Virus record (IMG/VR): IMGVR_UViG_3300032030_000014
Location: 3,919-67,918 of that record
Origin: a virus
Direction: 5' to 3' (one strand)
Length of the DNA stretch: 64,000 nucleotides
This document shows, one piece after another, positions 12,402 through 46,797 of this stretch. Under the pieces are notes generated by a model. It ran no database searches, had not been told where the DNA came from, and saw only the letters and a list, made by a program, of their open reading frames with translations. The position numbers and the translations under genes were made by a program. Every line of letters begins with the position of its first letter. Position 1 is the stretch's first letter.

Positions 12402-12408
12402 ATTTATA

Positions 12409-14892: not shown

Positions 14893-14900
14893 GTTTTTAT

Positions 14901-14994: not shown

Positions 14995-14999
14995 AATAT

Positions 15000-15450: not shown

Positions 15451-15462
15451 TAAGGAGTAATT

Positions 15463-15933: not shown

Positions 15934-15936
15934 TAT

Positions 15937-16860: not shown

Positions 16861-16889
16861 TTGATTTTTATAAAAAAATATTTTATAAT
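16861..16889 (+). promoter_or_regulatory. conserved phage promoter (family)
   Basis: ttgatttttataaaaaaatattttataat. Confidence 0.7.
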
Positions 16890-16922
16890 ATATATAGAAA
16901 ATAAATCAAGGAGGACCTAAAC

Positions 16923-17117
16923 ATGAATTATAAAAGATACCTGAACTATGAAATTGTCCTTCGGCGTTGCGTTCTTTTGGAAGAGGACGATAATAGACCC
17001 GTTGATGAAATCATTAATGAGGATCTTGATACCAATTGGTTCGTAGAAAATGCTACGAGAGATATGTTTGGTCCAGATGAAGTTCAAAATATTACTATGA
17101 ATTATTATAAAAAGTAA
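16923..17117 (+). CDS. small acidic protein (64 aa)
   Basis: RBS aaggaggacctaaacatg. Confidence 0.5.
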   Translation: MNYKRYLNYEIVLRRCVLLEEDDNRPVDEIINEDLDTNWFVENATRDMFGPDEVQNITMNYYKK

Positions 17118-17536
17118 TGCTGGCGTGGCTCAATGGCAGAGCAGCTGATTTGTTAGCTAAATTTATATCTATGATTGAATTAAGTCCAAAACAAAAAGGT
17201 AATTTAACCGAATTAAAATGCATTAGTGCGTTTTATGAATTAGGTTATCAATGTAGTATCCCTTATGGAGAAAATTCACGGTATGATTTAATTGCGGATA
17301 TAGATGGTAAGCTAATACGGGTACAATGTAAAACTTCAAGAGAAGTTGACGAAGGAGTTATAGAGTTTCCTTGTCGTAGTTCTCGAAGCAATACTCAATC
17401 TAATTTGCAAAGAAGATATACCGCAGACGAAATTGATTATTTCTGTACTTATTGGAAAGGGAAGTGTTATTTAATTCCTATTTCAGAATGTTCAGTAACT
17501 AAAAAACTTCGTTTTATCCCTCCAAAAAACGGATAG
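17117..17536 (+). CDS. ORF inside the tRNA insertion; PD-(D/E)XK-like nuclease motifs (YDLIADIDGKLIRVQCK); candidate intron or homing endonuclease
   Basis: ORF track. Alternative internal start ATG at 17168 (MIELSPKQKGN...). D...D...QxK motif. Confidence 0.45.
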   Translation: MLAWLNGRAADLLAKFISMIELSPKQKGNLTELKCISAFYELGYQCSIPYGENSRYDLIADIDGKLIRVQCKTSREVDEGVIEFPCRSSRSNTQSNLQRRYTADEIDYFCTYWKGKCYLIPISECSVTKKLRFIPPKNG

Positions 17537-17655
17537 AAAGTGGGGATTACTTATGCAAAAGATTATGAACTTCAAGGACAGCTTGAAAAATTGAAAGGTT
17601 AAACATTGGCTAACAAATCAGCAGGTTGGGGGTTCGACTCCCTCCGCCAGCTCCA
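17119..17655 (+). tRNA. split tRNA gene: 5' half (17119-17151) and 3' half (17611-17655) separated by a ~460-nt ORF-containing insertion; anticodon ambiguous (UCA if the exons join as ttt+caaa)
   Basis: Acceptor gctggcg/cgccagc is perfect; D-arm gctcaatggcagagc; anticodon-stem halves gctga and tcagc (extended 9-bp complementarity gctgatttg/caaatcagc); T-arm gggggttcgactccctc; U73; CCA. Confidence 0.5.
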
Positions 17656-17806
17656 CAAGGCTGCCTATGCCTTAAGGGCTTAGTGAAAGGTTTAAAGGTT
17701 TAGCGCTGAATCCTTAAACTAAGTAAATAGGAAGATACAAATAGGAGCCCTACCAAGGGACTGGGAAGAGGGCTGTAACCCCAGTATAAAGCAATCAGCC
17801 TACCGT

Positions 17807-17881
17807 GCGGGTATGGTGTCAGCGGTAGCACATGTGCTTGCCAAGCATAAAGGACGGGTCCGAATCCCGTTACTCGCTCCA
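17807..17881 (+). tRNA. tRNA-Gly (GCC)
   Basis: Acceptor gcgggta/tactcgc; anticodon arm tgtgc-ttGCCaa-gcata; T-arm acgggtccgaatcccgt; U73; CCA. Confidence 0.55.
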
Positions 17882-17890
17882 AAATAAATA

Positions 17891-17999
17891 AAGGCACATA
17901 CAGCAATTACATATAATATATGTACCATCGGTTCAAATCCGATTTCCGCAAATTTTGCGAAATAGCTTAGTTGGTAAAGCAATATAAAAAAAGTGCCTT
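17891..17999 (+). repeat. stem-loop family member (aaggcac-ATACAGCAA ... gtgcctt) enclosing T-arm-like and D-arm-like modules in permuted order
   Basis: Stem aaggcac/gtgcctt. Interior has atcggttcaaatccgat followed by tgcgaaatagcttagttggtaaagc. Confidence 0.4.
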
Positions 18000-18031
18000 G
18001 TGAAAACTTCGTTTTCACGAAGTAAAAATAT

Positions 18032-18109
18032 CGGGGTGTAGCACAGTTTGGCTAGTGCGCGCGCTTTGGGAGCGTGAGGTCGGGGGTTCAAGTCCCTCCA
18101 CCCCGACCA
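18032..18109 (+). tRNA. tRNA-Pro (TGG)
   Basis: Acceptor cggggtg/caccccg (C1-G72); anticodon arm cgcgc-ttTGGga-gcgtg; T-arm gggggttcaagtccctc; A73; CCA. Confidence 0.7.
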
Positions 18110-36118: not shown

Positions 36119-36961
36119 ATGATTACTCGCTGGCTTCTTACTGGCGATTGTCACGGCGAATTCACCAGGTTTAAAAACTATGATAAAGAAGTCCAGCAAG
36201 ATGAAAATACAGCAGTAATCATCCTCGGTGATGCTGGACTGAACTGGACATTGGACGAGCACGATAGTCAGATGAAGAACTTCCTATCCAAAAGATATAA
36301 GTTTAGGATCTACTGCGTGCGTGGAAACCACGAAGCACGACCTGCTGATGTTCCTGGGATGAAACTCATTTATGACGAGGATGTTGGCGGTGAAGTATAT
36401 ATGCAAGAAAAATGGCCTAATATTAGATATTTTAAAGATTGGGGTATTTATCTAATTGACGGCTTAGAAATCGCCGTTATTGGTGGAGCATATTCTGTTG
36501 ATAAGTGGTTTCGGCTTGATCGCGGTGCTATCTGGTTTGAAAATGAACAACTTACCGATGAAGAAATGCTTGCGGCAACTATAGAATTAACTGGAGCGGA
36601 AGTTGATATGGTATTTACCCATACTTGTCCTATCTGTTGGGAACCTTGGGATTTATTCCTTCCCAGCATTGATCAAAGTCGAGTGGATAAGTCCATGGAA
36701 CTATTTTTAGAAGAAATTGCTCAATGTTTTGGGTGGAAAATTTGGGTGTTTGGTCATTATCACGAAGACCGCCTAGAGCGTCCAGGAGTTGAGCAATTTT
36801 TTAAAAAGACAGAAGAGCTAAAGACTGTATGGGACAGATGGCAAAATTATGAAAAAGATAATGAATCTTTAAACTGGCGGTTGCCAAAAAGTCCAATGTT
36901 TTATGATAAAGATTTCGTTTTAGAGAAAAGAGAGGAATATTGGAAAAATGGAAAAAATTGA
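36119..36961 (+). CDS. calcineurin-like metallophosphoesterase (GDCHG, GDAGLN, VRGNHE)
   Basis: ORF track; phosphoesterase motifs I-III. Confidence 0.65.
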   Translation: MITRWLLTGDCHGEFTRFKNYDKEVQQDENTAVIILGDAGLNWTLDEHDSQMKNFLSKRYKFRIYCVRGNHEARPADVPGMKLIYDEDVGGEVYMQEKWPNIRYFKDWGIYLIDGLEIAVIGGAYSVDKWFRLDRGAIWFENEQLTDEEMLAATIELTGAEVDMVFTHTCPICWEPWDLFLPSIDQSRVDKSMELFLEEIAQCFGWKIWVFGHYHEDRLERPGVEQFFKKTEELKTVWDRWQNYEKDNESLNWRLPKSPMFYDKDFVLEKREEYWKNGKN

Positions 36962-37415
36962 AAAATTTGATGGACAATACGCTTTTCTTTCTAACTTCTA
37001 TGATAGCCCACTTCCAACCTCTGGAGGAACAGTAATTTTTCCAACAGTAGAACATTATTTTCAAGCAATGAAAACTGAAAATCCAGAAGAGAGAGAACGC
37101 ATAAGACTTGCGGCAACTCCTGGAAAAGCTAAACGATTAGGGCGCACGGTTAATTTGAGGGCTGATTGGGAAGAGATAAAGTTAAACGTGATGAAATATG
37201 CCTTAATTAAAAAGTTTAATAATAATCCTGAATTAAGAAATTTATTGCTTGAAACTGGCGATGCAGAACTCGTTGAAGGCAATTACTGGCACGATAACTT
37301 TTGGGGAAATTGTTCTTGTGAAAAATGTAAAAATATTAAAGGACAAAATCATTTAGGACAGCTTCTTATGGAAATTCGTGCAGAATATAGAAAATATAAC
37401 GATATTATCAGATAA
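36948..37415 (+). CDS. NADAR / YbiA-like (DUF1768) protein; possible ADP-ribosyl-DNA glycohydrolase (anti-DarT type)
   Basis: FLSNFYDSP ... EHYFQAMK ... W ... NYWHDNFWGNCSC pattern typical of NADAR. Confidence 0.55.
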   Translation: MEKIEKFDGQYAFLSNFYDSPLPTSGGTVIFPTVEHYFQAMKTENPEERERIRLAATPGKAKRLGRTVNLRADWEEIKLNVMKYALIKKFNNNPELRNLLLETGDAELVEGNYWHDNFWGNCSCEKCKNIKGQNHLGQLLMEIRAEYRKYNDIIR

Positions 37416-37442
37416 TCAAAGAGAGGAATAAATATCCTCTCT

Positions 37443-37471
37443 TTGATTTTTATAAAAAATTATTATATAAT
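37443..37471 (+). promoter_or_regulatory. conserved phage promoter (family)
   Basis: ttgatttttataaaaaattattatataat. Confidence 0.7.
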
Positions 37472-37506
37472 ATTTATAGAAAATAAAGAAAGGGTTGGTC
37501 TTATAA

Positions 37507-38304
37507 ATGAATATCTATTTTGACTTTGAAGCCACACAATTCTCAAATCAGGTTATTGCCATTGGAGCAACTTGCGACTATGGCGATTTCTGGTGTCTGG
37601 TGTCCAGTTTCCGCAAAAAGATTACTCCGTTTATCACTCAGCTGACCGGCATCACAAAGGAAATGGCTGAAGGTGCTCCTACTGCGGAAGAGGCTTTTTC
37701 TGATTTGCGTGAGTGGATTAGTAAGATGTGGGAATGTGCCGAAGAGCCGGTTTTCTATCACTGCTATGGCGATAGTGATAAAGATTTTCTCCATAATACC
37801 GCCTGGAAAATTGAAAACACTGGAATTGCCAATTTTGCTAATAATCTGGCAGATTCTTTGATTGACGATTCCAAAAAAGTGACACGTTTCTTCCACACCA
37901 AGGCTATTGGTGTATATAAGGCTCTGCGTTATTTTGAGCCTGAACTTGGTGAACAGGACCATGACCCGCTAAATGATGCAATCGCATTGCATCGTCTTAA
38001 TAATCATATCGACAAGGCTGAACCGCTGAATGAATATCCTTTTGTTGAGAACGATAAAATTATCAAAGTCGTTGCTCCTCAGCCTTCTAAGAGCGGTTAT
38101 CTTATTACCGCTATTTCATTGACTGATGTGGTTATGAAGCCCCGTTTCTTCGATACTTATGGCGAAGCCTGCGATTGGCTTTATGCCAGGGTCAAGAAGA
38201 AGAGCCCTGATGCAATAAGGGATAATATCTTGAAACGTATGAAAAAGGCTATTGACGAAACCTCTGATTATGGTGGTTTCCATTGGACTAAAGAAATTTG
38301 TTAA
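37507..38304 (+). CDS. DEDD-family 3'-5' exonuclease (DnaQ/RNase T-like)
   Basis: FDFEAT (Exo I) ... HDPLNDA (Exo III). Confidence 0.6.
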   Translation: MNIYFDFEATQFSNQVIAIGATCDYGDFWCLVSSFRKKITPFITQLTGITKEMAEGAPTAEEAFSDLREWISKMWECAEEPVFYHCYGDSDKDFLHNTAWKIENTGIANFANNLADSLIDDSKKVTRFFHTKAIGVYKALRYFEPELGEQDHDPLNDAIALHRLNNHIDKAEPLNEYPFVENDKIIKVVAPQPSKSGYLITAISLTDVVMKPRFFDTYGEACDWLYARVKKKSPDAIRDNILKRMKKAIDETSDYGGFHWTKEIC

Positions 38305-38322
38305 AGAAAGGATTGAGTAACA

Positions 38323-39669
38323 ATGAGCGAGCATGTTGGCTATATCGTAAAAATCAATGAGTTGAACCCTCATGCCAATGCTGACCGTCTGCAGATCGCA
38401 ACCATTTTTGGTGCTTCTGTAATTGTTGGGTTGGATGTTAAGGTGGGCGATCTCGGTGTATATTTCCCCATTGACCTTCAGCTGAGCGAGGAGTACTGTG
38501 CTCAGAATAACCTTGTCCGTAAGAAGGACGAGAATGGAAACAATATCGGCGGATACCTTGATCCCGATAAGCGGAATATACGTGCGATGAAACTCCGTGG
38601 TGAGAAGTCTGAGGGTCTCTTTATGCCTCTTGAGTCTCTTGCCTACACCGGCGAGACCAAGTTTGAGGTGGGTGAGAAGATTGACGTTCTCAACGGACAT
38701 GAGATTTGCCGTAAATATATCCCCAAGGGCAATTCTGGCGTCGCTCATGTCAAGGATGGAAACCATACCCGTAAGCATTCTGTTCCTATTGCACCTCTGT
38801 TCGCAGAGCACGCAGATACTGAGCAGCTGGCTTACAACCTGGATGCTTTCCGAGGCGGCGATCTTGTTGAGATCACCTTGAAGATGCACGGTACTTCTGG
38901 CCGCACTGGCTATCTGCCGAAGTTCCAGGGCTATAAGCGTACTTTCTGGGATAAGATCCTTCGTCGTCCTGGTACTCCTATTTACGATTGGGGTTATGTA
39001 ACCGGCACTCGTCGCGTTGTCCTCAACGACTTCGAGGATGGTGGATATTATGGCTCCAACGCATTCCGTGAGCCCCACGCAAAGTTCTTCGAGGGTAAGC
39101 TGCACAAGGGCGAGACCGTGTACTACGAGATCGTAGGTTTCACCAATGATGGTGCTCCTATCATGGCATCTGTTGCCAATAGCAAGATTTCTGATAAGGA
39201 GTTTGCTAAGCAGTACGGCAAGGAGACTGTGTTCTCTTATGGATGCGACCCGAAGGGTACTCCTGATGAGCCTCAGTCTGCCTGCTACGTCTATCGTATG
39301 ACCATGACCAACGAGGATGGCGATGTGGTGGAGTACACTCCCGACTTCATGCGTTATCGCTGTGAGCAGATGGGTGCCAAGTGCGTTCTTCCGTTCTGGA
39401 AGGGCTATATTCCTGAGGATCCCTACAAGCGTGATATGATTACTCCTGGCGATTGGATCAAGGATATTGCAGAGAAGTATTATGACGGACCTGACCCTGT
39501 CGGCAAGACTCATGTGCGTGAGGGCGTAGTTATCCGCATTGTGAATCACCCGAAGTTCTGTGCCTTCAAGCATAAGAACTTCTCCTTCAAGGTTCTTGAG
39601 GGTATCGCTAAGGATCTTGCAGCCGAGCCTGATATGGAGGAGGCTCAGGAGGTTCAGGACGATGTATAA
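38323..39669 (+). CDS. RNA ligase (Rnl2-like motif I KMHGTSGR) with N-terminal tRNA-binding OB domain (Myf/EMAP-like); candidate tRNA repair ligase
   Basis: N-terminus VGYIVKINELNPHANADRLQIATIFGASVIVGLDVKVGDLGVY...KLRGEKSEGLFMP resembles the tRNA-binding domain of MetRS/CsaA. KxHG nucleotidyl-transferase motif. Confidence 0.55.
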   Translation: MSEHVGYIVKINELNPHANADRLQIATIFGASVIVGLDVKVGDLGVYFPIDLQLSEEYCAQNNLVRKKDENGNNIGGYLDPDKRNIRAMKLRGEKSEGLFMPLESLAYTGETKFEVGEKIDVLNGHEICRKYIPKGNSGVAHVKDGNHTRKHSVPIAPLFAEHADTEQLAYNLDAFRGGDLVEITLKMHGTSGRTGYLPKFQGYKRTFWDKILRRPGTPIYDWGYVTGTRRVVLNDFEDGGYYGSNAFREPHAKFFEGKLHKGETVYYEIVGFTNDGAPIMASVANSKISDKEFAKQYGKETVFSYGCDPKGTPDEPQSACYVYRMTMTNEDGDVVEYTPDFMRYRCEQMGAKCVLPFWKGYIPEDPYKRDMITPGDWIKDIAEKYYDGPDPVGKTHVREGVVIRIVNHPKFCAFKHKNFSFKVLEGIAKDLAAEPDMEEAQEVQDDV

Positions 39670-39982
39670 TCCAGATCAGTTAGTTATGACTAAAGAAGAG
39701 GCAAGGTTCCCGTGGGAGCCGTTTAAGAGCAACACAGGAGACCCTCCTACTTCCACGGAACCTTCTTCTACTGTAATACCTACACCGCAGCCTGTTCCTC
39801 CAAAACTTTGCCCTTACCGCAAACAAACTGTATATATGACCATGGTACATGGAAGTAGAGTGGAAGTCTCTATGAACGATGCCACTTTTTCTGAGGAATT
39901 TTTCTTACCGTGTACAGAAGATTGTATATGCTATGTAAAATATGCCTTAAATGGCTATAGTCCAACTTGTAATCATAAATAA
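39662..39982 (+). CDS. hypothetical Pro/Thr-rich protein (106 aa)
   Basis: Internal ATG of ORF 39560..39982, overlapping the ligase stop. Confidence 0.45.
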   Translation: MYNPDQLVMTKEEARFPWEPFKSNTGDPPTSTEPSSTVIPTPQPVPPKLCPYRKQTVYMTMVHGSRVEVSMNDATFSEEFFLPCTEDCICYVKYALNGYSPTCNHK

Positions 39983-39988
39983 AAAAAA

Positions 39989-40016
39989 TAAGCCTCTTAG
40001 AAATAAGAGGCTTATT
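39989..40016 (+). terminator. rho-independent terminator (aagcctcttagaaataagaggctt + T-rich)
   Basis: Hairpin seen directly. Confidence 0.65.
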
Positions 40017-40044
40017 TGATTTTTTATAAAAAATATTGTATAAT
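40016..40044 (+). promoter_or_regulatory. conserved phage promoter (family)
   Basis: ttgattttttataaaaaatattgtataat. Confidence 0.7.
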
Positions 40045-40074
40045 AATTATAGAAAAAATAAAGGAGTGATACCT

Positions 40075-40854
40075 ATGGGAAGAGTATTTGCTCTAAGTGA
40101 CCTTCATGGTCAACGAGCATTATGGGAACAAATCAAGGAATATCTTGAGCCGGATGACAAGCTATTTTTTCTTGGCGACGCAATAGACCGCGGACCTGAT
40201 GGATTTGCAATTATGAAGGAGCTATTGACCGATAAGAGAGTAACTTATCTCAAGGGTAATCATGAAGCTTTGATGGAAGATGCTTTGTGTGAAATTCGTA
40301 GATATGAAGATCTTGGAGAAATGTTTACTCTCTGGCTTCAGAATGGTTGTTATCCAACCTATGAAGCATGGCTTAATAATGGAATGAATTTTGGTTGGAT
40401 CCATATTCTTCATAATCTTCCTACCAAATATACTTATGTAAATGCCAAGGGAGAAGAGGTTTGTCTATCCCATGCTGGCTTTACTCCTGGCTCACAGGCA
40501 GTAAGTGATTTTGATTTGATATGGAATAGAAAGCATTTTTTTGACAGTATTCCAGAAGAGTATCAAGATTGTCACGAAATCATTGTTCATGGACACACTC
40601 CAACGGTGTTTATTATGGAAGATTTTGACAAGGTTAATCAACTTGCCGCTTGGAATCAGCAAAATGGAAAACATGGTAATACATATTATTTCCAGGAGAG
40701 AGAAGGAGCAGTTATCTATGGAGATGGATGTAAAGTATGTATTGACTGCGGCTGTTTCGCAACTGGACACACTGTTTTGTTAAATCTGGATACCTGGGAA
40801 GTAATTCCCTTTGATGCAGACATTGAAGATGGTGAGGAGGATATTAACGAATGA
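40075..40854 (+). CDS. metallophosphoesterase / Ser-Thr phosphatase-like (LSDLHGQ, GDAIDRGPDG, GNHE)
   Basis: ATG with RBS aaaggagtgatacctatg; ORF-track start 40036 lies inside the promoter. Confidence 0.65.
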   Translation: MGRVFALSDLHGQRALWEQIKEYLEPDDKLFFLGDAIDRGPDGFAIMKELLTDKRVTYLKGNHEALMEDALCEIRRYEDLGEMFTLWLQNGCYPTYEAWLNNGMNFGWIHILHNLPTKYTYVNAKGEEVCLSHAGFTPGSQAVSDFDLIWNRKHFFDSIPEEYQDCHEIIVHGHTPTVFIMEDFDKVNQLAAWNQQNGKHGNTYYFQEREGAVIYGDGCKVCIDCGCFATGHTVLLNLDTWEVIPFDADIEDGEEDINE

Positions 40855-41075
40855 GCTCTTATGATTGGGAAGATCTTGGTATAGCAATTGTCGTTGCAAT
40901 TTTTGCTCTTGTTTTGGCTTTTTTTGAAGCAATTCTCGGAGTTTGGCTGTGGAGAAAAATTATGGTAGAAATTTTCAATCTTCCATATTTGACTTTCTGG
41001 CAGTTTTATGGTCTGACCGTTTTAATTCACATCATTTTCCCCGGCAGAACAGTAAAAATTAAGGAGAAAAACTAA
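40851..41075 (+). CDS. small membrane protein (2 TM helices)
   Basis: ORF track; hydrophobic segments. Confidence 0.5.
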   Translation: MSSYDWEDLGIAIVVAIFALVLAFFEAILGVWLWRKIMVEIFNLPYLTFWQFYGLTVLIHIIFPGRTVKIKEKN

Positions 41076-41335
41076 TGGCTAAATATGAAGAGCATCAGTT
41101 TTATTGTCTTCTTTGCGGCAGGCCTGGTATTCCACTCCGAAGAAAAACAGGTTTTCAACACGGTGCAATGCATCGTAAGAAATTGTATTGCCCCTACTGT
41201 AAAACCGAAGTAAATCATGTTGAAATAAGAAACATTCTTGAAAAAGAAAAGTTTCTTGAAGACTTTAAAAATGGGGTGTATAAAGATGAAGCAGAAGAAT
41301 CTCGTAATACTTGCCGGAATTCCAGGTGCGGGTAA
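41075..41335 (+). CDS. small zinc-ribbon protein (CLLCG ... CPYC)
   Basis: ORF track; overlapping stop and start. Confidence 0.5.
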   Translation: MAKYEEHQFYCLLCGRPGIPLRRKTGFQHGAMHRKKLYCPYCKTEVNHVEIRNILEKEKFLEDFKNGVYKDEAEESRNTCRNSRCG

Positions 41336-41786
41336 ATCTACTTGGGTTAAACAACACCTTGGTGAAAATGATATATATGTTTCTCGTGATGAAGTGCGTT
41401 TTTCTCTTATCAGCAATGAAGAAGAGTATTTTTCTCATGAGACTGAAACATTCGATAAGTTTGTGCGAGGAATTGAAAAGAATTTGGAAAAGGGTAAGCG
41501 TGTTTTCGCAGACGCAACACATATCAATTGGGCAAGTCGCCGCAAATTGATTGAGCGTTTACACAATCGTGAAGATATTGATATTGATGTGTATTACTTC
41601 ACTATCACTCTTCCTCTTGCGATTGCTCGAAATAATCAGCGCCAAGGACGTGCTCGCGTACCAGAGGATGTTATCCACCGCATGTATAAACAATCTACTC
41701 ATCCGTCTACCGACCCCTTTACTTATCATACAATAAAACTAATTTTTTCTGATGGACAAGAGACTGTTGTAAAGGAGGGTGAATAA
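41286..41786 (+). CDS. P-loop polynucleotide-kinase-like protein (GIPGAGKST ... SRDEVR)
   Basis: Walker A plus Pnk-like SRD motif. ORF track 41238..41786; the start I chose is the first ATG not overlapping most of the upstream gene. Confidence 0.5.
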   Translation: MKQKNLVILAGIPGAGKSTWVKQHLGENDIYVSRDEVRFSLISNEEEYFSHETETFDKFVRGIEKNLEKGKRVFADATHINWASRRKLIERLHNREDIDIDVYYFTITLPLAIARNNQRQGRARVPEDVIHRMYKQSTHPSTDPFTYHTIKLIFSDGQETVVKEGE

Positions 41787-41787
41787 T

Positions 41788-42306
41788 ATGTAGACTATTT
41801 GGATTGCATGCGGTCCACCTGCAAGCGGAAAAAGTACAGCTATACAAGAAAGAATTCAAGATAATGAATTATATGTATCTCGTGATGCGGTAAGATTATC
41901 TATGATTCCAGAAGGCGAAACAATCTACTCTGTTTATGAAGATGATGTTTATCATAATTTTATTGAAGCAGTTCAAAACGCAATCAATACAGGAAAAAAT
42001 GTCTATATAGACGATACTCATTGTTTTGCTAAAAATCGTAAAGAATTGCTTGATAACTTAGATATATCAGAAGTAGATAAAATAAATATTATCTGTTTTA
42101 AAACCTCTTTATTTTTCTGTATCAAGAGAAATAATAAAAGAGATAGTTGGCATAGAACTAATGCTCAAACCGTTTCAAGAGAATTTTATGCTCTGCAAAC
42201 AGAAGATCCTGCTAATGATGACTTTTATAAGTATGATGAAATTCATTATATTTATGATGATGGAACAGAAGAGGTGAAATATAAAAATGATTTGGGTAAC
42301 GAGTGA
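41788..42306 (+). CDS. second P-loop kinase-like protein (CGPPASGKST ... SRDAVR); TAG is codon 2
   Basis: ATG-TAG-ACT...; in frame with ORF 41902..42306; Walker A lies upstream of the ORF-track start. Confidence 0.5.
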
Positions 42307-42883
42307 CTGGCATTTTGGTCATGACAGAGAATTTATCTGGAAGGCTCGCGGTTTTGCCAGTGTTGAAGATATGAATGAATATATTATCAATGCACATAAT
42401 GCGATTGTAAAGCCAGAAGATGATGTTTATGTTCTTGGCGATTTGATGCTCGGTGATAGCGATAAGGGTATTGAATGCGTTAAGCGTATGAATGGAAAAC
42501 TTCATATTGTATGGGGCAACCATGATACAGATTCTCGTAAAGCGAAATATAATGCTCTGCCGAATGTGGTTGAAAGCGGTCATGTAATCGTGCTGAAATA
42601 CAAAAAGCATAACTTCTATATGAGCCATTATCCTACGCTAACCGGCAACCTTGAACAAGAAAGTCTGACGCAAATGACGCTTAATCTTTTTGGGCATACT
42701 CACCAAAAGACAAATTTTCATATGGATATGCCCTTTATGTATCATGTTGGCGTAGATTCTCATAAATGTTTTCCAGTAAACCTGGATAATATTATCGAAG
42801 AGATGCACGCAAAAGTAAAAGAGTGTAAGGAGTTCCTCGATGAACCGGACGATAAGAAAACGCCAGAAGTGGAGTTGGCTTAG
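42287..42883 (+). CDS. metallophosphoesterase (DWHFGH, GDLMLGD, GNHD)
   Basis: ORF track; phosphoesterase motifs. Confidence 0.65.
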   Translation: MIWVTSDWHFGHDREFIWKARGFASVEDMNEYIINAHNAIVKPEDDVYVLGDLMLGDSDKGIECVKRMNGKLHIVWGNHDTDSRKAKYNALPNVVESGHVIVLKYKKHNFYMSHYPTLTGNLEQESLTQMTLNLFGHTHQKTNFHMDMPFMYHVGVDSHKCFPVNLDNIIEEMHAKVKECKEFLDEPDDKKTPEVELA

Positions 42884-43112
42884 ACAGAAGGAATTGAACA
42901 AGTTCCTGAGCCCTATAGAGCAGCCGCAATTAACTGGGATTACGAGACACAGCGATGCGATAAATGCGTTCATTACAGAAGTCAATGCGGTGGCCCATCT
43001 CGGTATCGACCAGGGAAATGCCCCCCTGGACAATCTTATAAAAGGGATCCTCCTGACGGTGGATTCTATGGATGATTATTTTGTTGATTTATTTAAACAA
43101 GGGTACATTTAA
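42840..43112 (+). CDS. hypothetical protein (90 aa)
   Basis: ORF track. Confidence 0.4.
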   Translation: MNRTIRKRQKWSWLRQKELNKFLSPIEQPQLTGITRHSDAINAFITEVNAVAHLGIDQGNAPLDNLIKGILLTVDSMDDYFVDLFKQGYI

Positions 43113-43140: not shown

Positions 43141-44619
43141 ATGCTGAGTACAATTTTGCCGTTCATTCCTTTCGTTGTGATTGCGATTGTTGTTATCGCA
43201 ATTCTTTGCAGTGGTTATATCAAGGCTCCGCCCGATATGGCTTACATCATCTCTGGTCTTCACAAAAAGCCTCGTATCCTTATTGGTAAGGCCGGCATCA
43301 AGATTCCTTTCTTCGAGCGAGTTGATAAGCTCTCACTTGGTGCCATCCAGATTGATGTAAAGACCGGCTCTGCCGTTCCTACTGCCGAATATATCAACGT
43401 TAGAGTGGATAGCACAGTTTCAGTGCGTGTAGGTAGAACTGATGAAATGATTGCGTTGGCGGCTCAGAACTTTTTGAATGTTGGGCGTGAAGAGATTGCG
43501 CGCAAGATTAATGATCTCCTGGAAGGCAACATTCGTGAAATTGTTGGCCAAATGAAGCTGACTGAAATGATTGGCGACCGCAAGAGCTTCTCTGAAAAGG
43601 TGCAGGAAAATGCTGTTCCCGACCTCGCCAGATATGGTCTTGAGCTGATTACCTTCAACGTTCAGAACTTCGTTGATGACAACGACGTTATTCAGAACCT
43701 TGGTATTGATAACGTCGCACAGATTTCCAAGAACGCTGCTATCGCTCGTTCAAACGCTGAACGCGAAGTTGAAGTCGCAAAGGCTGCAAACGCAAAGCAG
43801 GCAAATGACGCTAAGGTCCAGGCTGCTGAAGAGATTGCCAAGAGAAACAATGACCTGGCAATCAAGCAGGCAAATCTTCAGCGTGAAGCTGATACTGAGA
43901 AGGCTCGTGCCGAGGCTGCCAAGAGCATCGAGGCAGAAAATCAGCGTAAGTTGAAGGATGTTGCTGAAACCGAAGCGAATATCGCCAAGGCACAGAAGCA
44001 AGCCGAACTCAAGCAGAAGGAAATTGAACTGAAAGAGTATGAACTGACCGCTCTTGTGCGTAAGCAGGCTGATGCCGATAAGTACGCTCAGGAGAAGGCA
44101 GCTGAAGCAAAAATGGTTCAGCAGCAGCGAGAGGCTGAGGCTCGTGCTTACGAGCAGGTGAAGAGATCTGAAGCCGCAAAACGTGCAACTGAGCTCGAAG
44201 CGGAAGCACGCAAGTTGCAGGCAGATGCTGATAAGTATGCGGCGATGGCTGAGGCGGAAGCAATTAAGGCAAAGGGTGAAGCTGAAGCTGAGGCAATCCG
44301 CTTGAAAGGCGAGGCTGAAGCTATTGGTATTGAGAAGAAGGCTGAGGCTCAGAAGAAGATGGGTGAAGCTTCCGTTATCGAAATGATTATGAACGCACTG
44401 CCCGAAATGACTGCGGCCGCCGCGGCTCCTTTGAGCCAGGTTGATAGCATCACTATGTACGGCGATGGCAATGGAGCTAAAATGGTTGGTGACATCACTA
44501 CTTCCGTCAGTAAGGTCATCTCTGGCGTGAAAGATGCAACCGGAGTGGACATTGCGTCCCTTATCGCCGGATATATGAGTGGCAAGACTCTGACTGGCAA
44601 TCCTCCCACGCAAGAATAA
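43141..44619 (+). CDS. SPFH/Band-7 (flotillin-like) membrane protein with long Ala/Glu/Lys coiled-coil region (492 aa)
   Basis: N-terminal TM helix; Band-7 core (YIISGL ... IQIDVKTG ... YINVRVDSTVSVRV); ~200-aa EA-rich coiled coil. Confidence 0.6.
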   Translation: MLSTILPFIPFVVIAIVVIAILCSGYIKAPPDMAYIISGLHKKPRILIGKAGIKIPFFERVDKLSLGAIQIDVKTGSAVPTAEYINVRVDSTVSVRVGRTDEMIALAAQNFLNVGREEIARKINDLLEGNIREIVGQMKLTEMIGDRKSFSEKVQENAVPDLARYGLELITFNVQNFVDDNDVIQNLGIDNVAQISKNAAIARSNAEREVEVAKAANAKQANDAKVQAAEEIAKRNNDLAIKQANLQREADTEKARAEAAKSIEAENQRKLKDVAETEANIAKAQKQAELKQKEIELKEYELTALVRKQADADKYAQEKAAEAKMVQQQREAEARAYEQVKRSEAAKRATELEAEARKLQADADKYAAMAEAEAIKAKGEAEAEAIRLKGEAEAIGIEKKAEAQKKMGEASVIEMIMNALPEMTAAAAAPLSQVDSITMYGDGNGAKMVGDITTSVSKVISGVKDATGVDIASLIAGYMSGKTLTGNPPTQE

Positions 44620-45272: not shown

Positions 45273-45551
45273 ATGGAAAGGGTGATACTTATTACTATTC
45301 TATTAGTATTTTGTATGGGCTATGCTTTGTGTGCCTGGGGGGTTCCATTCCTTGATAACATATTTAATACTATTGCTGTATTTTTTCAATTACTTCAAGG
45401 AAAAATGGCAGTAAAAATAACTGCGGACTCTGTAAAAGCAGCTAAATTAAAAGAGGCACTAAATAAAGATGGAGAAAGCACTAGAGTAATAGGCTTTACA
45501 CTCCCCAATCCAATAGAAGAAGAGGAAGAAGAATATGAAGATGACGAATAA
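45273..45551 (+). CDS. small membrane protein with acidic C-terminus (92 aa)
   Basis: ORF track. Confidence 0.5.
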   Translation: MERVILITILLVFCMGYALCAWGVPFLDNIFNTIAVFFQLLQGKMAVKITADSVKAAKLKEALNKDGESTRVIGFTLPNPIEEEEEEYEDDE

Positions 45552-46797
45552 ATATTTCGATACGAGTAGTTTGTTGCTATTGGCAGATACCCTTTTTGAA
45601 GAAAATCATAATTTTAATATTTATATTACATCAATAACATTAAGTGAATTAGAATATATTAAAACATCTGCTAATAAAGACCAAAGTGTAAAATATGCAG
45701 CTCGTCAATTACTTCATAAACTTGACGAAAATTTAGACAAATGGAATTGTCTACCTTATAATACAGATTGTCAACAAATATTAGATAGATTCAAATATGA
45801 AACTACTAATGATACAAAAATTTTAGCTCTTGCATATCAACATATGAATCAATATTAGGCTCAAATTCCTATTTTTGTTACTAATGATATTGCATTAAAA
45901 ATGTTGGCAAAACCACTATTTGGTAAAAATATTGAAAGTATTCCAATAGAAGTAGAAGATTATACAGGATATGAAGAATTATACCTTACCGAAGAGGAAA
46001 TGGCTAATTTCTATTCTTACCCTAATATTTATGGTCAATGTCTAAAAATCAATCAATACATAAATTTGTATAGTAAAGAAACAAAAGAAAGAGTAGATAC
46101 ATTACTCTGGACCGGAGAAGAATTTAGACAACTCAAATATAAAGGTTTTTATTCTAAACAATTTGGAGAAATTAAACCTTATAAAGGTGATATATATCAA
46201 GCTATGGCGGCAGATAGTCTTATGAATAATAAGATTACAATGATCAAAGGACCTGCGGGCGCCGGTAAATCACTTCTCTCTGTTGGATACTTATTTTACT
46301 TATTAGAAAAGGGAAAAATAGACAAAATAATTATATTTTGTAATACAATAGCAACAAAAAATTCAGCACGTTTAGGATTTTATCCTGGAACACGCGATGA
46401 AAAACTTTTAGATTCACAAATTGGTAACTTTTTATCCAGCAAATTAGGTAGTCAATTGGCAGTAGAACAATTGATTCAAAGCGAAAAACTATTATTGCTA
46501 CCAATGAGCGATATTAGAGGTTATGATACTTCTGGAATGAATGCTGGTATTTATATTACAGAAGCCCAAAATCTTGATATACAATTACTCAAATTAGCAC
46601 TCCAAAGAGCCGGCGAAGATTCAATCTTTATCCTTGATGGAGATATAGATAGTCAAGTTGATTTAATTGACTATGAAGGAGTAAATAATGGTATGCGTCG
46701 AGCCTCTAAAGTATTTAGAGGTAGCGATATATATGGAGAAGTTACATTAAAAACAATTCATAGAAGTAAAATTGCAGAATTGGCACAGATGCTATGA
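45535..46797 (+). CDS. PhoH2-type protein: N-terminal PIN-like domain fused to PhoH-like P-loop ATPase (GPAGAGKS); one in-frame TAG at the domain junction
   Basis: ORFs 45535..45858 and 45901..46797 share a frame and are separated only by TAG (HMNQY-TAG-AQIPIFVTNDIAL); PIN+PhoH is a known domain architecture. Confidence 0.6.

What the first reader, a model, noticed from the sequence alone, without database searches (positions are those of the whole stretch)
36119..42883. Extended RNA and tRNA repair toolkit
Within 7 kb there is an Rnl2-type RNA ligase (KMHG motif) fused to an N-terminal tRNA-binding OB domain. Beside it are two tandem Pnk-like P-loop kinases, three calcineurin-like phosphoesterases, a DEDD exonuclease and a NADAR protein. 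Elsewhere there is a Thg1-like 3'-5' polymerase (23251), a Pol-beta nucleotidyltransferase (34647) and the Ro60-like protein. Together with ~35 tRNA genes this suggests the phage both supplies its own tRNA pool and heals cleaved host and phage tRNAs, countering anticodon-nuclease defence. Ro60/Rsr systems in bacteria are also linked to RNA repair.
Basis: partly seen in the sequence, partly recalled or inferred. Interest (0 to 1): 0.6.

Follow-up and report, generated by a model that had tools for sequence, protein, structure and literature searches.

The report
Phage RNA break-repair gene cassette
An uncultured large phage that reads the TAG stop codon as an amino acid carries a conserved set of genes for mending broken RNA (ligase, end-fixing kinases and phosphatases, a nucleotide-adding enzyme) next to a Ro60-like RNA-binding protein and 35 tRNA genes; this is a recognisable variant of a toolkit already described in big phages, not a new kind of system.

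Summary
One label is wrong. The ligase (38323-39669, KMHG at residues 187-190) is an Rnl5-type (DraRnl/NgrRnl-like) nick-sealing RNA ligase, whose N-terminal OB domain is the family signature; it is not Rnl2. The second kinase exists only if TAG at codon 2 is read through, and the window is from a TAG-recoded phage with two tRNA(CUA) genes.

Across 80 related viral loci the conserved core is ligase, a Pol-beta (RlaP-like) nucleotidyltransferase and a Pnk-like kinase, often with the Ro60-like gene. One group of loci fuses the kinase to an HD phosphohydrolase. The window's group instead has a stand-alone kinase followed directly by metallophosphoesterase 3, the likeliest 3'-end healer.

NADAR, the DEDDh exonuclease and phosphoesterases 1 and 2 are accessories confined to that group; NADAR is better explained as an ADP-ribose remover. 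The tRNA and anticodon-nuclease target is inferred, not shown.

The concept is published for jumbo phages. Side findings are tRNA-like RNAs with an ACAGCAA motif linked to the Ro60-like gene, and a major-vault-protein homologue.

The parts
38323..39669 (+). Rnl5-like ATP-dependent RNA ligase. It has an N-terminal OB domain and a nucleotidyltransferase domain with motif I K187-M-H-G, motif III E269, motif IV E400-G-V-V-I-R and motif V K416-H-K418.
   Evidence: phrog_968 at 1.7e-68 over the full length. TIGR02306 RNA_lig_DRB0094 at 2.8e-14, below its cutoff. PF21189. PDB sequence hit to the NgrRnl OB domain at 7e-4. Foldseek: NgrRnl 3e-14 against T4 Rnl2 4e-6. K187 aligns with NgrRnl K170. The motif residues are invariant in 54 homologues.
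34647..35495 (+). Pol-beta superfamily nucleotidyltransferase, RlaP-like. The active-site pattern GS...DVD is visible in the sequence.
   Evidence: phrog_388 at 2.5e-22. Pfam RlaP scores 20.8 bits against a 23-bit cutoff. A homologue lies within 10 kb of the ligase in 67 of 80 related loci.
41286..41786 (+). Pnk-like 5'-kinase 1, with P-loop GIPGAGKST and the motif SRDEVR.
   Evidence: AAA_33 at 1.2e-15. Bacterial Pnkp at 1.9e-15 and PSTK at 8.6e-14. phrog_505 'polynucleotide kinase' at 2.4e-20. PDB: C. thermocellum Pnkp kinase domain 2e-9, T4 Pnk 2e-8.
41788..42306 (+). Pnk-like 5'-kinase 2, a paralogue of kinase 1. It starts ATG-TAG, so it is made only if TAG is decoded. It has P-loop GPPASGKST and the motif SRDAVR.
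   Evidence: Sequence. phrog_505 at 4.6e-17. Pnkp1 (4xrp) at 5e-3. 33% identical to kinase 1, E 1e-28.
42287..43075 (+). Metallophosphoesterase 3 (YfcE/aq_1665-like), with a Cys-rich C-terminal extension reached by reading through TAG 42881. It is the probable 3'-end healing partner of the kinase.
   Evidence: Metallophos_2 at 2.9e-8. phrog_547 at 4.5e-44. 1xm7 at 1.2e-5. It lies directly downstream of the stand-alone kinase in 35 of 35 such loci, and is absent from 30 of the 37 kinase-HD loci and not adjacent to the kinase in the other 7. The extension is contiguous, with no stop codon, in L010, L021 and L022.
40075..40854 (+). Metallophosphoesterase 2, of the lambda-phosphatase/PrpA/ApaH type, with motifs DLHG, GDAIDRG and GNHE.
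   Evidence: Metallophos at 1.3e-11. phrog_246 at 5.7e-31 and phrog_8238 (a kinase-phosphatase-ligase fusion profile), positions 174-346, at 4e-10. Lambda phosphatase 1g5b at 2e-4. Present in 29 of 35 stand-alone-kinase loci and 0 of 37 kinase-HD loci.
36119..36961 (+). Metallophosphoesterase 1, substrate unknown.
   Evidence: Metallophos at 2.6e-13. phrog_1649 at 2.1e-21. No PDB sequence match.
36948..37415 (+). NADAR domain protein, a probable nucleic-acid ADP-ribosyl-guanine hydrolase.
   Evidence: NADAR at 3.7e-34. phrog_1017 at 1.8e-47. Function inferred from PMC11825919 and PMC11833690.
37507..38304 (+). DEDDh 3'-5' exonuclease with a C-terminal extension of about 100 residues. It is the first gene of the ligase transcription unit.
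   Evidence: RNase_T at 6.3e-9. ERI1-family exoribonuclease 3 at 1.4e-3. Promoter at 37443-37471.
39662..39982 (+). 106-aa protein of unknown function, co-transcribed with the ligase.
   Evidence: ORF. Called as a gene in relatives. No family hit.
41075..41335 (+). Zinc-ribbon protein that precedes the kinase.
   Evidence: phrog_1257 at 3e-9. Present in 29 of 35 stand-alone-kinase loci.
40851..41075 (+). 74-aa predicted membrane protein.
   Evidence: ORF. Synteny with relatives.
28044..29585 (+). Ro60-like protein (DUF2828 helical domain plus a vWA domain with MIDAS residues D315, S317, S319).
   Evidence: Pfam. phrog_850 'RNA-binding protein' at 2e-132. AF2 model at pLDDT 75.7. The top 8 Foldseek hits are all Ro60/TROVE, best 1.4e-6. 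MIDAS residues invariant.
30821..33271 (+). Major-vault-protein-like protein (vault repeat, shoulder domain, C-terminal coiled coil).
   Evidence: MVP_shoulder at 3.5e-19 and Vault_3 at 1.1e-9. No PHROG family.
43141..44619 (+). SPFH/flotillin-like membrane scaffold, the last gene of the kinase transcription unit.
   Evidence: Band_7 at 1.6e-21 and Flot at 4e-7. Terminator at 44625-44654.
23251..24087 (+). Thg1-like 3'-5' nucleotidyltransferase.
   Evidence: PF04446 at 5.5e-26. phrog_4717 at 2e-88.
5346..26540 (+). Array of 35 tRNA genes, including two tRNA(CUA) suppressors at 24736-24810 and 25009-25083.
   Evidence: ARAGORN. Rfam.
17891..18002 (+). Candidate Y-RNA-like (YrlA-like) RNA. It has a closing stem AAGGCAC/GUGCCUU, the motif ACAGCAA, then a T-arm, a hairpin and a D-arm in the permuted YrlA order.
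   Evidence: Rfam YrlA at 27.7 bits, E 0.031, below the gathering score. Folding z-score -2.95. Homologous elements with compensatory stems in L009 and L011.
25128..25219 (+). Second RNA with the ACAGCAA motif. Its 5' end AAGGCAGAUACAGCAAUU is almost identical to that of the 17891 element. It has a T-arm and a closing stem.
   Evidence: Sequence and fold.
16235..16358 (+). tRNA-shaped RNA with acceptor stem GGGGAAC/GUUCCCC, a 3' ACCA, a T-arm and an internal ACAGCAA insertion.
   Evidence: A homologue lies upstream of the Ro60-like gene in L007.
33316..33344 (+). Conserved phage promoter TTGATT-N17-TATAAT. It heads the unit that contains the nucleotidyltransferase, phosphoesterase 1 and NADAR.
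   Evidence: 16 copies in the window, all on the + strand, against 0.04 expected. Scan.
37443..37471 (+). Same promoter type, heading the exonuclease-ligase unit. The terminator is at 39986-40017.
40016..40044 (+). Same promoter type, heading the unit phosphoesterase 2, kinases, phosphoesterase 3, SPFH.
45535..46797 (+). PIN-PhoH protein, an RNA-acting ATPase/nuclease type, immediately downstream.
   Evidence: PIN_4 and PhoH in the relative. PhoH at 7.6e-24.

Best explanation
The interval is the centre of a conserved phage module for healing and sealing broken RNA, expressed from a shared early-type promoter class.

Core pathway (gene content shown, chemistry inferred from the families):
1. 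An RNA broken by a metal-independent ribonuclease carries 2',3'-cyclic-phosphate and 5'-OH ends.
2. A metallophosphoesterase opens or removes the 3' phosphate. Phosphoesterase 3 is the best candidate because it takes the place of the HD domain that relatives fuse to the kinase. The lambda-phosphatase-like phosphoesterase 2 is the second candidate.
3. The Pnk-like kinase(s) phosphorylate the 5'-OH.
4. If a nucleotide was lost, the RlaP-like Pol-beta nucleotidyltransferase restores it, or the DEDDh exonuclease trims the end.
5. The Rnl5-type ligase, via lysine 187-AMP, seals the 3'-OH/5'-PO4 junction. It most likely acts where the break lies in or next to a duplex.

The most likely substrates are tRNAs or tRNA-like RNAs, from host or phage, damaged by host ribotoxin defences. 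This is inferred by analogy with T4 Pnk/Rnl1 and from the neighbouring tRNA array, Thg1 and Ro60-like protein.

NADAR, phosphoesterase 1 and perhaps phosphoesterase 2 are co-located counter-defence or accessory enzymes, not obligate steps.

Kinase 2 and the long form of phosphoesterase 3 need TAG decoding. They can therefore appear only once the phage suppressor tRNAs act (inferred).
For: - Family assignments for every enzyme.
- Ligase: Rnl5 fold and a complete motif set.
- Rosetta-stone evidence: kinase 1 and phosphoesterase 2 match consecutive segments of the fusion profiles phrog_8238 and phrog_246.
- Related phages carry ligase / nucleotidyltransferase / kinase-HD as adjacent genes (L017).
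- A Bacillus phage has a 48%-identical ligase with a Pnk gene next to it. A mycobacteriophage has the two genes about 3 kb apart.
- Co-occurrence within 10 kb of the ligase in 80 loci: nucleotidyltransferase 67, kinase 65.
- HD fusion and kinase-adjacent phosphoesterase 3 are alternatives. Of 37 kinase-HD loci, 30 lack phosphoesterase 3 and in the other 7 it is not next to the kinase. All 35 stand-alone-kinase loci have it directly downstream.
- A separate NAD-dependent DNA ligase is encoded at 56704-58617, so this ligase is not needed for DNA joining.
- The same promoter motif heads the three units of the module and units in the tRNA region.
- The module is almost free of TAG codons, unlike many other genes of the window.
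- Published comparative genomics describes the same toolkit in jumbo phages (PMC7824862).
Against: - No enzyme activity, substrate or phenotype is shown.
- Characterised Rnl5 ligases seal duplex nicks and have an uncharted physiological role. DraRnl affects DNA reassembly after irradiation (PMC5397189).
- The nucleotidyltransferase is below the Pfam RlaP threshold.
- The kinases score nearly as well against PSTK, a tRNA-dependent kinase.
- The co-occurrence counts come from what look like two groups of related phages, so they are not independent events.
- Phosphoesterase 2 did not match the bacterial Pnkp model.
- The ligase structure model is only of medium confidence: pLDDT 65.6, TM-scores 0.35-0.45.
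Confidence: 0.6

Rival explanations
1. All nine genes of the interval, together with Thg1 and the Ro60-like protein, form one integrated tRNA-repair machine aimed specifically at anticodon nucleases.
For: All the genes are adjacent, on one strand, under one promoter class, and syntenic in close relatives. The window also has Thg1 and 35 tRNA genes.
Against: NADAR, the DEDD exonuclease and phosphoesterases 1 and 2 are absent from all 37 kinase-HD loci, which keep only ligase, nucleotidyltransferase and kinase. Phage NADARs act on ADP-ribosylated guanine (PMC11825919, PMC11833690). Rnl5 enzymes prefer duplex nicks to open loops (PMC5397189). The tRNA-His gene already encodes G-1.
Confidence: 0.15
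2. DNA repair or replication role. The Rnl5-like ligase seals nicks whose 3'-OH strand is RNA, for example ribonucleotide-tailed breaks or primer junctions. The kinases and phosphoesterases clean DNA ends, as proposed for DraRnl.
For: DraRnl loss delays genome reassembly after irradiation (PMC5397189). The neighbourhood holds a pyrimidine-dimer glycosylase (29971-30405), UDG, RNase H, gyrase/topoisomerase and LigA genes.
Against: The conserved partners are an RNA-ligase-associated type of nucleotidyltransferase and a Ro60-like RNA-binding protein. The kinases score best against RNA-repair Pnkp/Pnk. A dedicated DNA ligase is present.
Confidence: 0.1
3. Housekeeping RNA processing. The cassette matures the phage's own unusual tRNA-shaped RNAs, which carry insertions with the ACAGCAA motif or have a permuted order. 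It would join ends after endonucleolytic cuts, as tRNA splicing enzymes do, rather than repair defence damage.
For: tRNA-shaped RNAs of about 115 nt, with an insertion of roughly 45 nt in the anticodon region, sit in tandem next to the Ro60-like gene in relatives. Three related elements lie in the window's tRNA array. The chemistry (cyclic-phosphate opening, kinase, ligase) is that of the fungal and plant tRNA splicing ligase.
Against: No splicing endonuclease was identified. The insertions look like Y-RNA modules, with a conserved protein-binding-like motif, rather than introns. No anticodon can be read in them. No evidence of cleavage exists.
Confidence: 0.1

Closest known systems
Jumbo-phage RNA repair toolkits and RlaP-associated RNA repair systems (Iyer et al. 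2021, PMC7824862; Burroughs & Aravind 2016, cited from memory because the paper is not held in the library)
   Same: The same 'syntax': an ATP-dependent RNA ligase, a polynucleotide kinase, a phosphoesterase and a ligase-associated Pol-beta nucleotidyltransferase. Optional ROT/TROVE protein, Thg1 and NADAR/Macro, plus many tRNA genes.
   Different: The ligase is the divergent OB-domain (Rnl5-like, phrog_968) type, which that survey set apart from Rnl1/Rnl2. 3'-end healing is by calcineurin-type phosphoesterases rather than HAD or 2H enzymes. The kinase is duplicated in tandem. The host phage is TAG-recoded. MVP-like and flotillin-like genes are embedded in the module.
[quoted passage not shown]
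   Same: An N-terminal OB domain followed by a C-terminal adenylyltransferase domain, with no C-terminal appended domain. Motif I lysine aligns with NgrRnl K170. NgrRnl is the best sequence and structural match.
   Different: About 110 residues longer, with insertions and an acidic tail. Only about 16% identical to NgrRnl in the structural alignment. It scores 52.7 bits against the 151-bit cutoff of TIGR02306. Its activity is untested.
Phage T4 Pnk + Rnl1 tRNA repair (the counter to the PrrC anticodon nuclease)
   Same: A phage-encoded 5'-kinase, 3'-phosphatase and ATP-dependent RNA ligase. T4 Pnk is among the best structural-database matches of kinase 1.
   Different: The ligase family differs: Rnl5-like, not Rnl1. 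The phosphatase is a metallophosphoesterase on a separate polypeptide, not a HAD domain fused to the kinase. No cognate host nuclease is known.
Bacterial Pnkp/Hen1 and Pnkp1-Rnl-Hen1 RNA repair systems
   Same: The kinase is closest to the Pnkp kinase domain (4gp7, TIGR04075). The phosphatase is of the calcineurin/lambda-phosphatase type, as in Pnkp. Kinase 2 weakly matches Pnkp1.
   Different: The domains are split into separate genes. No Hen1 methyltransferase was seen. The ligase is not the Pnkp ligase domain (3ty5 scores only E 0.02).
Ro60/Rsr with YrlA-type Y RNAs (Chen et al. 2014, PMC4201824)
   Same: A ring-type helical domain plus a vWA protein whose best structural matches are all Ro60. 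tRNA-like RNAs lie on the same strand next to the gene in relatives, and one window element matches the YrlA model architecture.
   Different: The protein belongs to Pfam DUF2828/DUF7788, not the TROVE family. The RNAs carry ACAGCAA instead of the GNCGAAN0-1G motif and score far below the Rfam threshold. In the window they sit in the tRNA array 3-12 kb from the gene.
AdfN, phage NADAR anti-DarTG1 factor (PMC11825919)
   Same: A stand-alone phage NADAR protein of similar size.
   Different: No DarT-type activity or target is known for this phage's host. Not tested here.

Membership tests
Rnl5 RNA ligases (DraRnl/NgrRnl) | N-terminal OB domain directly fused to a C-terminal adenylyltransferase domain, with no C-terminal accessory domain | tested here: met
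   PF21189 OB at residues 8-103. The NgrRnl OB domain aligns at residues 11-109. Full-length Foldseek match to NgrRnl at 3e-14. The protein ends about 30 residues after motif V.
Rnl5 RNA ligases (DraRnl/NgrRnl) | Covalent nucleotidyltransferase motifs I, III, IV and V with the lysine nucleophile | tested here: met
   K187-M-H-G, E269, E400-G-V-V-I-R and K416-x-K418 are invariant in 54 homologues. K187 aligns with NgrRnl K170.
Rnl5 RNA ligases (DraRnl/NgrRnl) | Scores above the curated family model cutoff (TIGR02306 RNA_lig_DRB0094) | tested here: not met
   52.7 bits against a 151.15-bit cutoff, and only residues 8-198 align. It is a divergent sister clade, not an equivalog.
Rnl5 RNA ligases (DraRnl/NgrRnl) | Mn-dependent sealing of 3'-OH/5'-PO4 nicks with RNA on the 3'-OH side | not testable with these tools
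   This is a biochemical property (PMC5397189).
Rnl2 RNA ligases (T4 Rnl2, REL1) | N-terminal adenylyltransferase domain followed by a C-terminal helical domain, with no N-terminal OB domain | tested here: not met
   The domain order is OB then nucleotidyltransferase. T4 Rnl2 matches only the catalytic domain, at 4e-6, eight orders of magnitude weaker than NgrRnl. Pfam RNA_ligase PF09414 did not reach E 0.01 for this protein, although it is recorded for some close homologues.
Polynucleotide 5'-kinases (T4 Pnk / bacterial Pnkp clade) | P-loop GxxxxGK[ST] plus a downstream catalytic Asp/Arg motif (S/N-R-D-x-x-R), and best matches to Pnk/Pnkp rather than metabolite kinases | tested here: met
   Kinase 1: GIPGAGKST...SRDEVR. 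Kinase 2: GPPASGKST...SRDAVR. Matches: TIGR04075 1.9e-15, 4gp7 2e-9, 1ly1 2e-8, phrog_505. PSTK scores close behind. No thymidylate or adenylate kinase family was listed.
Polynucleotide 5'-kinases (T4 Pnk / bacterial Pnkp clade) | Phosphoryl transfer to the 5'-OH of RNA or DNA | not testable with these tools
   Needs an enzyme assay.
RlaP (RNA-ligase-associated Pol-beta nucleotidyltransferase) | Match to Pfam PF10127 above the gathering score | tested here: not met
   20.8 bits against 23. The L017 homologue gives no hit. phrog_388 'nucleotidyltransferase' scores 2.5e-22.
RlaP (RNA-ligase-associated Pol-beta nucleotidyltransferase) | Conserved genomic linkage to an RNA ligase | tested here: met
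   67 of 80 related loci have a homologue within 10 kb of the ligase. It is adjacent in L017-type loci.
Ro60/TROVE proteins | Helical-repeat TROVE ring followed by a vWA domain with a MIDAS motif | tested here: inconclusive
   The eight best Foldseek matches are all Ro60 proteins over the full length, but with low TM-scores of 0.31-0.37. MIDAS residues D315/S317/S319 are invariant. The Pfam assignment is DUF2828/DUF7788, not TROVE.
Ro60/TROVE proteins | Partner Y RNA encoded nearby on the same strand | tested here: inconclusive
   No Rfam match at gathering score. A weak YrlA match lies at 17891-18002. Tandem tRNA-like RNAs with the ACAGCAA motif lie directly upstream of the gene in 9 relatives. 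Binding is untested.
Calcineurin-like metallophosphoesterases | Motifs DxH, GD(xxDR) and GNH[DE], with a Pfam match above cutoff | tested here: met
   All three proteins pass Metallophos or Metallophos_2. The motifs GDCHG/GDAG/GNHE, DLHG/GDAIDRG/GNHE and DWHFGH/GDLM/GNHD can be read in the translations.

The most novel reading that the evidence does not exclude
The repair enzymes may be only the catalytic part of a phage-encoded ribonucleoprotein assembly resembling Ro/vault particles. The parts would be: a Ro60-like (DUF2828-vWA) protein; a previously undescribed class of tRNA-shaped Y-like RNAs marked by an ACAGCAA motif; a near full-length major-vault-protein homologue; a flotillin-type scaffold; and an ADP-ribose-removing NADAR. 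Together they would capture and mend damaged tRNAs. Two components would be gated by TAG suppression, so the machine would change composition during infection.
Probability: 0.15. Interest if true: 0.75.

Novelty: new member of a known kind. Interest (0 to 1): 0.42.

Why it matters
The finding adds a well-resolved example of RNA break repair in an abundant, uncultured, stop-codon-recoded phage lineage; the ligase search returned its ceiling of 8000 homologues from public metagenomes. It ties an Rnl5-type ligase, whose natural role is still unknown, to a conserved kinase / nucleotidyltransferase / Ro60-like context. That gives a testable hypothesis for what Rnl5 enzymes do in nature. The exchange of a kinase-fused HD domain for a separate metallophosphoesterase nominates a specific enzyme for 3'-end healing. 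The tRNA-like RNAs with the ACAGCAA motif and the vault-protein homologue are leads toward phage Ro/Y-RNA biology. None of this overturns current views, because the general toolkit has already been described for jumbo phages.

Tried and rejected
- Rnl2 assignment: rejected on domain order and on the ranking of matches.
- Profile of close ligase homologues against PDB: weaker than the single sequence because the alignment is too shallow. It was useful only for the motif I alignment.
- Megablast of 28000-45000 against isolated phages: no match. No cultured close relative exists in that collection.
- Exact-protein contig look-up for the window ligase: not on record. Cluster look-up shows only unnamed metagenomic contigs.
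- Rfam at gathering score: tRNAs only, no Y RNA.
- Scan of viral contigs for a T-arm followed by a D-arm: all 17 hits were ordinary tandem tRNA genes. Uninformative.
- The search for related loci with the protein at 18356-18802, meant to fetch relatives' tRNA regions: nothing found.
- A covariance model for the ACAGCAA RNAs was considered but not built. MAFFT did not align the variable hairpins in register, so the support given is direct reading of compensatory stems plus motif enrichment.
- Burroughs & Aravind 2016 could not be retrieved. Statements about it rest on memory and on its citation in PMC7824862.
- Thymidylate or metabolite kinase reading of the two kinases: no such family appeared.
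- tRNA-His needing Thg1 for G-1: the gene already has G at position -1, so this simple rationale for Thg1 is not required.
- PDB sequence searches for phosphoesterase 1 and the nucleotidyltransferase: no hits.

Full report
**The observation**

All genes in 34.6-44.6 kb lie on the + strand.
- 36119-36961: Metallophos, 2.6e-13.
- 36948-37415: NADAR, 3.7e-34.
- 37507-38304: RNase_T/DEDD exonuclease, 6.3e-9.
- 40036-40854: Metallophos, 1.3e-11.
- 41238-41786: AAA_33, 1.2e-15.
- 42287-42883: Metallophos_2, 2.9e-8 (all).

NCBIfam and PHROG give concordant results.

Elsewhere in the window:
- Thg1 at 23251-24087: PF04446, 5.5e-26; phrog_4717, 2e-88.
- A Pol-beta nucleotidyltransferase at 34647-35495: phrog_388, 2.5e-22.
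- 35 tRNA genes between 5346 and 26540.

The block is conserved gene for gene in a 188.6-kb related metagenomic contig. No isolated phage in the collection is close at the DNA level. The window's own proteins occur only on unnamed metagenomic contigs, the longest 163,725 bp.

Many long + strand ORFs are continuous only if TAG is decoded. Examples are 54540-56657 with 11 in-frame TAGs and 3141-4502 with 8. Two tRNA(CUA) genes lie at 24736 and 25009. One of them shares its acceptor stem and discriminator base with the phage tRNA-Gln(CUG).

This matters for the finding in two ways.
- The second kinase really starts at 41788 with ATG-TAG, behind a GGAGG ribosome-binding site, and then encodes the P-loop GPPASGKST.
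- The third phosphoesterase runs through TAG 42881 into a Cys-rich extension ending at 43075. That extension is joined without any stop codon in relatives L010, L021 and L022. It is separated by TAG in L027, and it is a separate ORF in L008.

Apart from these two codons the module is almost free of in-frame TAG.

**The ligase**

The 448-residue protein matches phrog_968 'RNA ligase' end to end at 1.7e-68. It matches the DraRnl model TIGR02306 at 2.8e-14, but only over residues 8-198 and below the cutoff. It also matches Pfam PF21189, the PHA02142 OB-fold domain.

Its only sequence match among solved structures is the OB domain of Naegleria gruberi RNA ligase, the Rnl5 prototype. An AlphaFold model of medium quality (pLDDT 65.6) finds NgrRnl first, at E 3e-14 over the full length. 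T4 Rnl2 follows at 4e-6, then archaeal Rnl3 and REL1. tRNA-binding OB proteins appear only at about 1e-2.

KMHG (187-190) aligns with the NgrRnl motif I KLDG. K187, E269, E400-G, K416 and K418 are invariant in 54 homologues.

[quoted passage not shown] The protein is therefore Rnl5-like, not Rnl2. It is a divergent sister clade rather than an equivalog, because the curated cutoff is not met. A separate NAD-dependent DNA ligase is encoded at 56704-58617.

**Kinases and phosphoesterases**

Kinase 1 scores best against:
- the bacterial Pnkp model, 1.9e-15;
- the C. thermocellum Pnkp kinase domain, 4gp7, 2e-9;
- T4 Pnk, 2e-8.

PSTK is close behind at 8.6e-14. Kinase 2 is a 33%-identical paralogue of kinase 1; it matches phrog_505 'polynucleotide kinase' at 4.6e-17 and, weakly, Pnkp1 of the Pnkp1-Rnl-Hen1 complex. 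Both kinases keep the P-loop and an S-R-D-x-x-R motif.

- Phosphoesterase 2 is of the lambda-phosphatase/PrpA/ApaH type.
- Phosphoesterase 3 is YfcE/aq_1665-like.
- Phosphoesterase 1 has no informative relative.

Kinase 1 and phosphoesterase 2 match consecutive segments of two fusion profiles. In phrog_8238 the kinase matches positions 2-143 and the phosphoesterase positions 174-346; the same pattern holds for phrog_246. This is Rosetta-stone support for a joint function.

**Comparative context**

Eighty IMG/VR loci encode a ligase 58-79% identical to this one. Within 10 kb of it, tblastn finds the following homologues:
- nucleotidyltransferase in 67 loci;
- a kinase in 65;
- the Ro60-like gene in 43;
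- phosphoesterase 3 in 42;
- phosphoesterase 1 in 31;
- phosphoesterase 2 in 29;
- the MVP-like gene in 27;
- NADAR in 20;
- the exonuclease in 19;
- Thg1 in 12.

The loci fall into two architectures.
- In 37 loci the order is ligase, small ORF, nucleotidyltransferase, then a kinase fused to an HD phosphohydrolase. Example: L017 12503-13459, AAA_33 plus a sub-threshold HD match (19.1 bits against a 22-bit cutoff). None of phosphoesterases 1 and 2, NADAR, the exonuclease, MVP or SPFH is nearby.
- In 35 loci the kinase is stand-alone and phosphoesterase 3 starts about 500 nt downstream in every case. Phosphoesterase 2 and the zinc-ribbon gene are each present in 29 of the 35.

These counts probably reflect two groups of related phages, so they are not independent events. 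Two conclusions still hold. The core common to both architectures is ligase, nucleotidyltransferase and kinase, usually with the Ro60-like gene. And where the HD domain is missing, phosphoesterase 3 occupies its place.

Relatives have a single kinase. The tandem pair was seen only in the window and its closest relatives L002 and L003. A Bacillus phage with a 48%-identical ligase has a Pnk gene adjacent. A mycobacteriophage has the two genes about 3 kb apart.

**Expression**

A 29-nt promoter-like motif, TTGATT-N17-TATAAT with a conserved A/T spacer, occurs 16 times in the window, always on the + strand, against 0.04 expected. Five copies precede units of the module, at 27939, 30761, 33316, 37443 and 40016. 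Others lie in the tRNA region.

With the terminator-like hairpins this predicts the following units:
- 33316 onward: small ORFs, nucleotidyltransferase, phosphoesterase 1, NADAR;
- 37443 onward: exonuclease, ligase, 106-aa ORF, terminator at 39986;
- 40016 onward: phosphoesterase 2, membrane ORF, zinc ribbon, kinase 1, kinase 2, phosphoesterase 3, SPFH protein, terminator at 44625.

That host RNA polymerase uses these promoters early in infection is an inference. It fits the near absence of TAG in the module.

**Mechanism**

The best-supported reading is a healing-and-sealing pathway.
1. A phosphoesterase converts 2',3'-cyclic or 3'-phosphate ends to 3'-OH.
2. The kinase makes the 5'-phosphate.
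3. The nucleotidyltransferase refills lost nucleotides, or the exonuclease trims.
4. The Rnl5-like ligase joins the ends.

Gene content and linkage are shown. Every chemical step is inferred from family knowledge: T4 Pnk/Rnl1, bacterial Pnkp, and the published proposal that RlaP enzymes restore lost nucleotides (PMC7824862).

That the substrates are tRNAs cut by host anticodon nucleases is plausible. The evidence is the tRNA array, Thg1, the Ro60-like protein and the T4 precedent. It remains untested, and characterised Rnl5 enzymes prefer duplex nicks.

NADAR is better explained by its demonstrated phage role, removing ADP-ribose from guanine in DNA, and by NADAR activity on guanosine-modified RNA (PMC11825919, PMC11833690).

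**The Ro60-like protein and its possible RNAs**

The DUF2828/DUF7788 protein (28044-29585) was modelled at pLDDT 75.7. Its eight best PDB matches are all Ro60/TROVE proteins, led by a Thermus phage Ro60 at 1.4e-6, though TM-scores are low. The vWA MIDAS residues are invariant.

Rfam at gathering score finds no Y RNA. A permissive scan gives a full-length but weak YrlA match at 17891-18002: 27.7 bits, E 0.031. That element has an outer stem, a T-arm, a hairpin and a D-arm in the permuted YrlA order. It folds better than all 200 shuffles.

Homologous elements in L009 and L011 keep this architecture with different stem sequences. All of them carry the motif ACAGCAA just after the 5' strand of the closing stem.

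The same motif marks two more window elements, at 16235-16358 and 25128-25219. In nine relatives it marks 1-4 tRNA-shaped RNAs, mostly in tandem, lying 0.1-1.3 kb upstream of the Ro60-like gene on the same strand; those hit by the tRNA model are about 115 nt long.

CAGCAA is the commonest hexamer 10-50 nt upstream of T-arm motifs in these loci: 25 of 257, against about 2.6 expected. Known YrlA RNAs lie within 4 kb of Ro60 genes on the same strand and carry a 5' GNCGAAN0-1G motif thought to bind Ro60 (PMC4201824). These phage RNAs look like a variant of that theme. Binding is untested.

**Comparison and novelty**

A comparative survey of jumbo phages already describes the combination of tRNA arrays, ATP-dependent RNA ligases, polynucleotide kinases, phosphoesterases (including, rarely, calcineurin-like ones), RlaP nucleotidyltransferases, a ROT/TROVE protein, Thg1 and NADAR/Macro enzymes. 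It interprets the combination as a counter to host attacks on the translation apparatus (PMC7824862).

The present cassette is therefore a new member of a known kind. Its particular features are:
- an Rnl5-like ligase;
- a split and duplicated kinase;
- a metallophosphoesterase in the place of the HD domain;
- two products dependent on TAG decoding;
- embedded MVP-like and flotillin-like genes.

The inventory and the general idea hold. The ligase subtype, the single-pathway view and the specific anticodon-nuclease target do not follow from the evidence.

Noticed in passing
whole window; e.g. 3141-4502, 18882-20114, 54540-56657; tRNA(CUA) at 24736-24810 and 25009-25083: The phage reads TAG as a sense codon. 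Many long ORFs have 5-11 in-frame TAGs, and two suppressor tRNA(CUA) genes are present. One of them shares its acceptor stem and discriminator with the phage tRNA-Gln(CUG). The repair module is almost free of TAG.
   Followed up: partly
41788-41793 and 42881-42883: TAG is codon 2 of kinase 2. TAG also sits in the linker between the phosphoesterase 3 catalytic domain and a conserved Cys-rich C-terminal domain that is contiguous in some relatives. Both products would depend on suppressor tRNA, which would give stage-specific or two-isoform expression.
   Followed up: partly
window 16235-16358, 17891-18002, 25128-25219; L029 6770-7122, L037 6878-7125, L055 15361-15601, L042, L044, L050, L056, L007, L009, L011: A family of tRNA-shaped or YrlA-like RNAs with an invariant ACAGCAA motif after a variable stem. 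In relatives, up to four copies, mostly in tandem, lie upstream of the Ro60-like (DUF2828) gene. In the window they are scattered through the tRNA array. No Rfam family matches at threshold.
   Followed up: partly
30821-33271: A protein of about 815 aa with a major-vault-protein repeat, a shoulder domain and a C-terminal coiled coil, encoded by a phage. It has no PHROG family. It is present in 27 of 80 related loci, all without a kinase-HD fusion (22 with the stand-alone kinase, 5 with no kinase detected).
   Followed up: partly
43141-44619: An SPFH/flotillin-like protein with an N-terminal membrane segment and a long Ala/Glu/Lys-rich coiled region. It is the last gene of the kinase transcription unit and has no PHROG family.
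   Followed up: no
7474-7605 (+): A strong match to the orphan RNA family RAGATH-33: 116.6 bits, E 4e-24, just under the 120.4-bit gathering score because of a 19-nt hairpin insertion. It lies inside the tRNA array.
   Followed up: partly
16 sites, e.g. 4573, 5136, 9601, 27939, 30761, 33316, 37443, 40016, 58614: A highly conserved promoter-like motif, TTGATTTTT-A/T-rich-TATAAT. It occurs 16 times, all on the + strand, against 0.04 expected. It heads the tRNA clusters and the repair module alike.
   Followed up: partly
54540-56657 and 56704-58617: Two tandem LigA-like genes. The downstream one is a standard NAD-dependent DNA ligase. The upstream one has 11 in-frame TAGs, and only its BRCT domain is detected, so its adenylation domain may be degenerate or very divergent.
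   Followed up: partly
7269-7345: The phage tRNA-His gene has G at position -1 opposite C73 and an encoded CCA end. G-1 need not be added by the Thg1-like enzyme, whose role may instead be 5'-end repair.
   Followed up: partly
7824-7902 and 11816-11889: Odd tRNA calls. One has a two-base 'anticodon' (ARAGORN 'tRNA-???'; Rfam tRNA 43 bits). The other is a 74-nt 'tRNA-Ser', too short for a class II tRNA.
   Followed up: no
2358-3125 and 20124-20819, next to 3141-4502 and 18882-20114: Two Cys/Gly/Thr-rich repetitive small proteins, each next to a roughly 410-450-aa protein with a CxxxCxxC motif that suggests a radical SAM maturase. All four are rich in TAG codons. They look like peptide-modification pairs. 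The reading comes from the translations only.
   Followed up: no
30443-30697 (-): A small minus-strand ORF with an in-frame TAG, between a bidirectional terminator (30404-30443) and the MVP promoter. It is the only apparent minus-strand gene in the module.
   Followed up: no
L069 3706-4055: A related phage contig encodes a tmRNA (102.6 bits) within its tRNA array. ARAGORN, which also reports tmRNA genes, listed none in the window.
   Followed up: no
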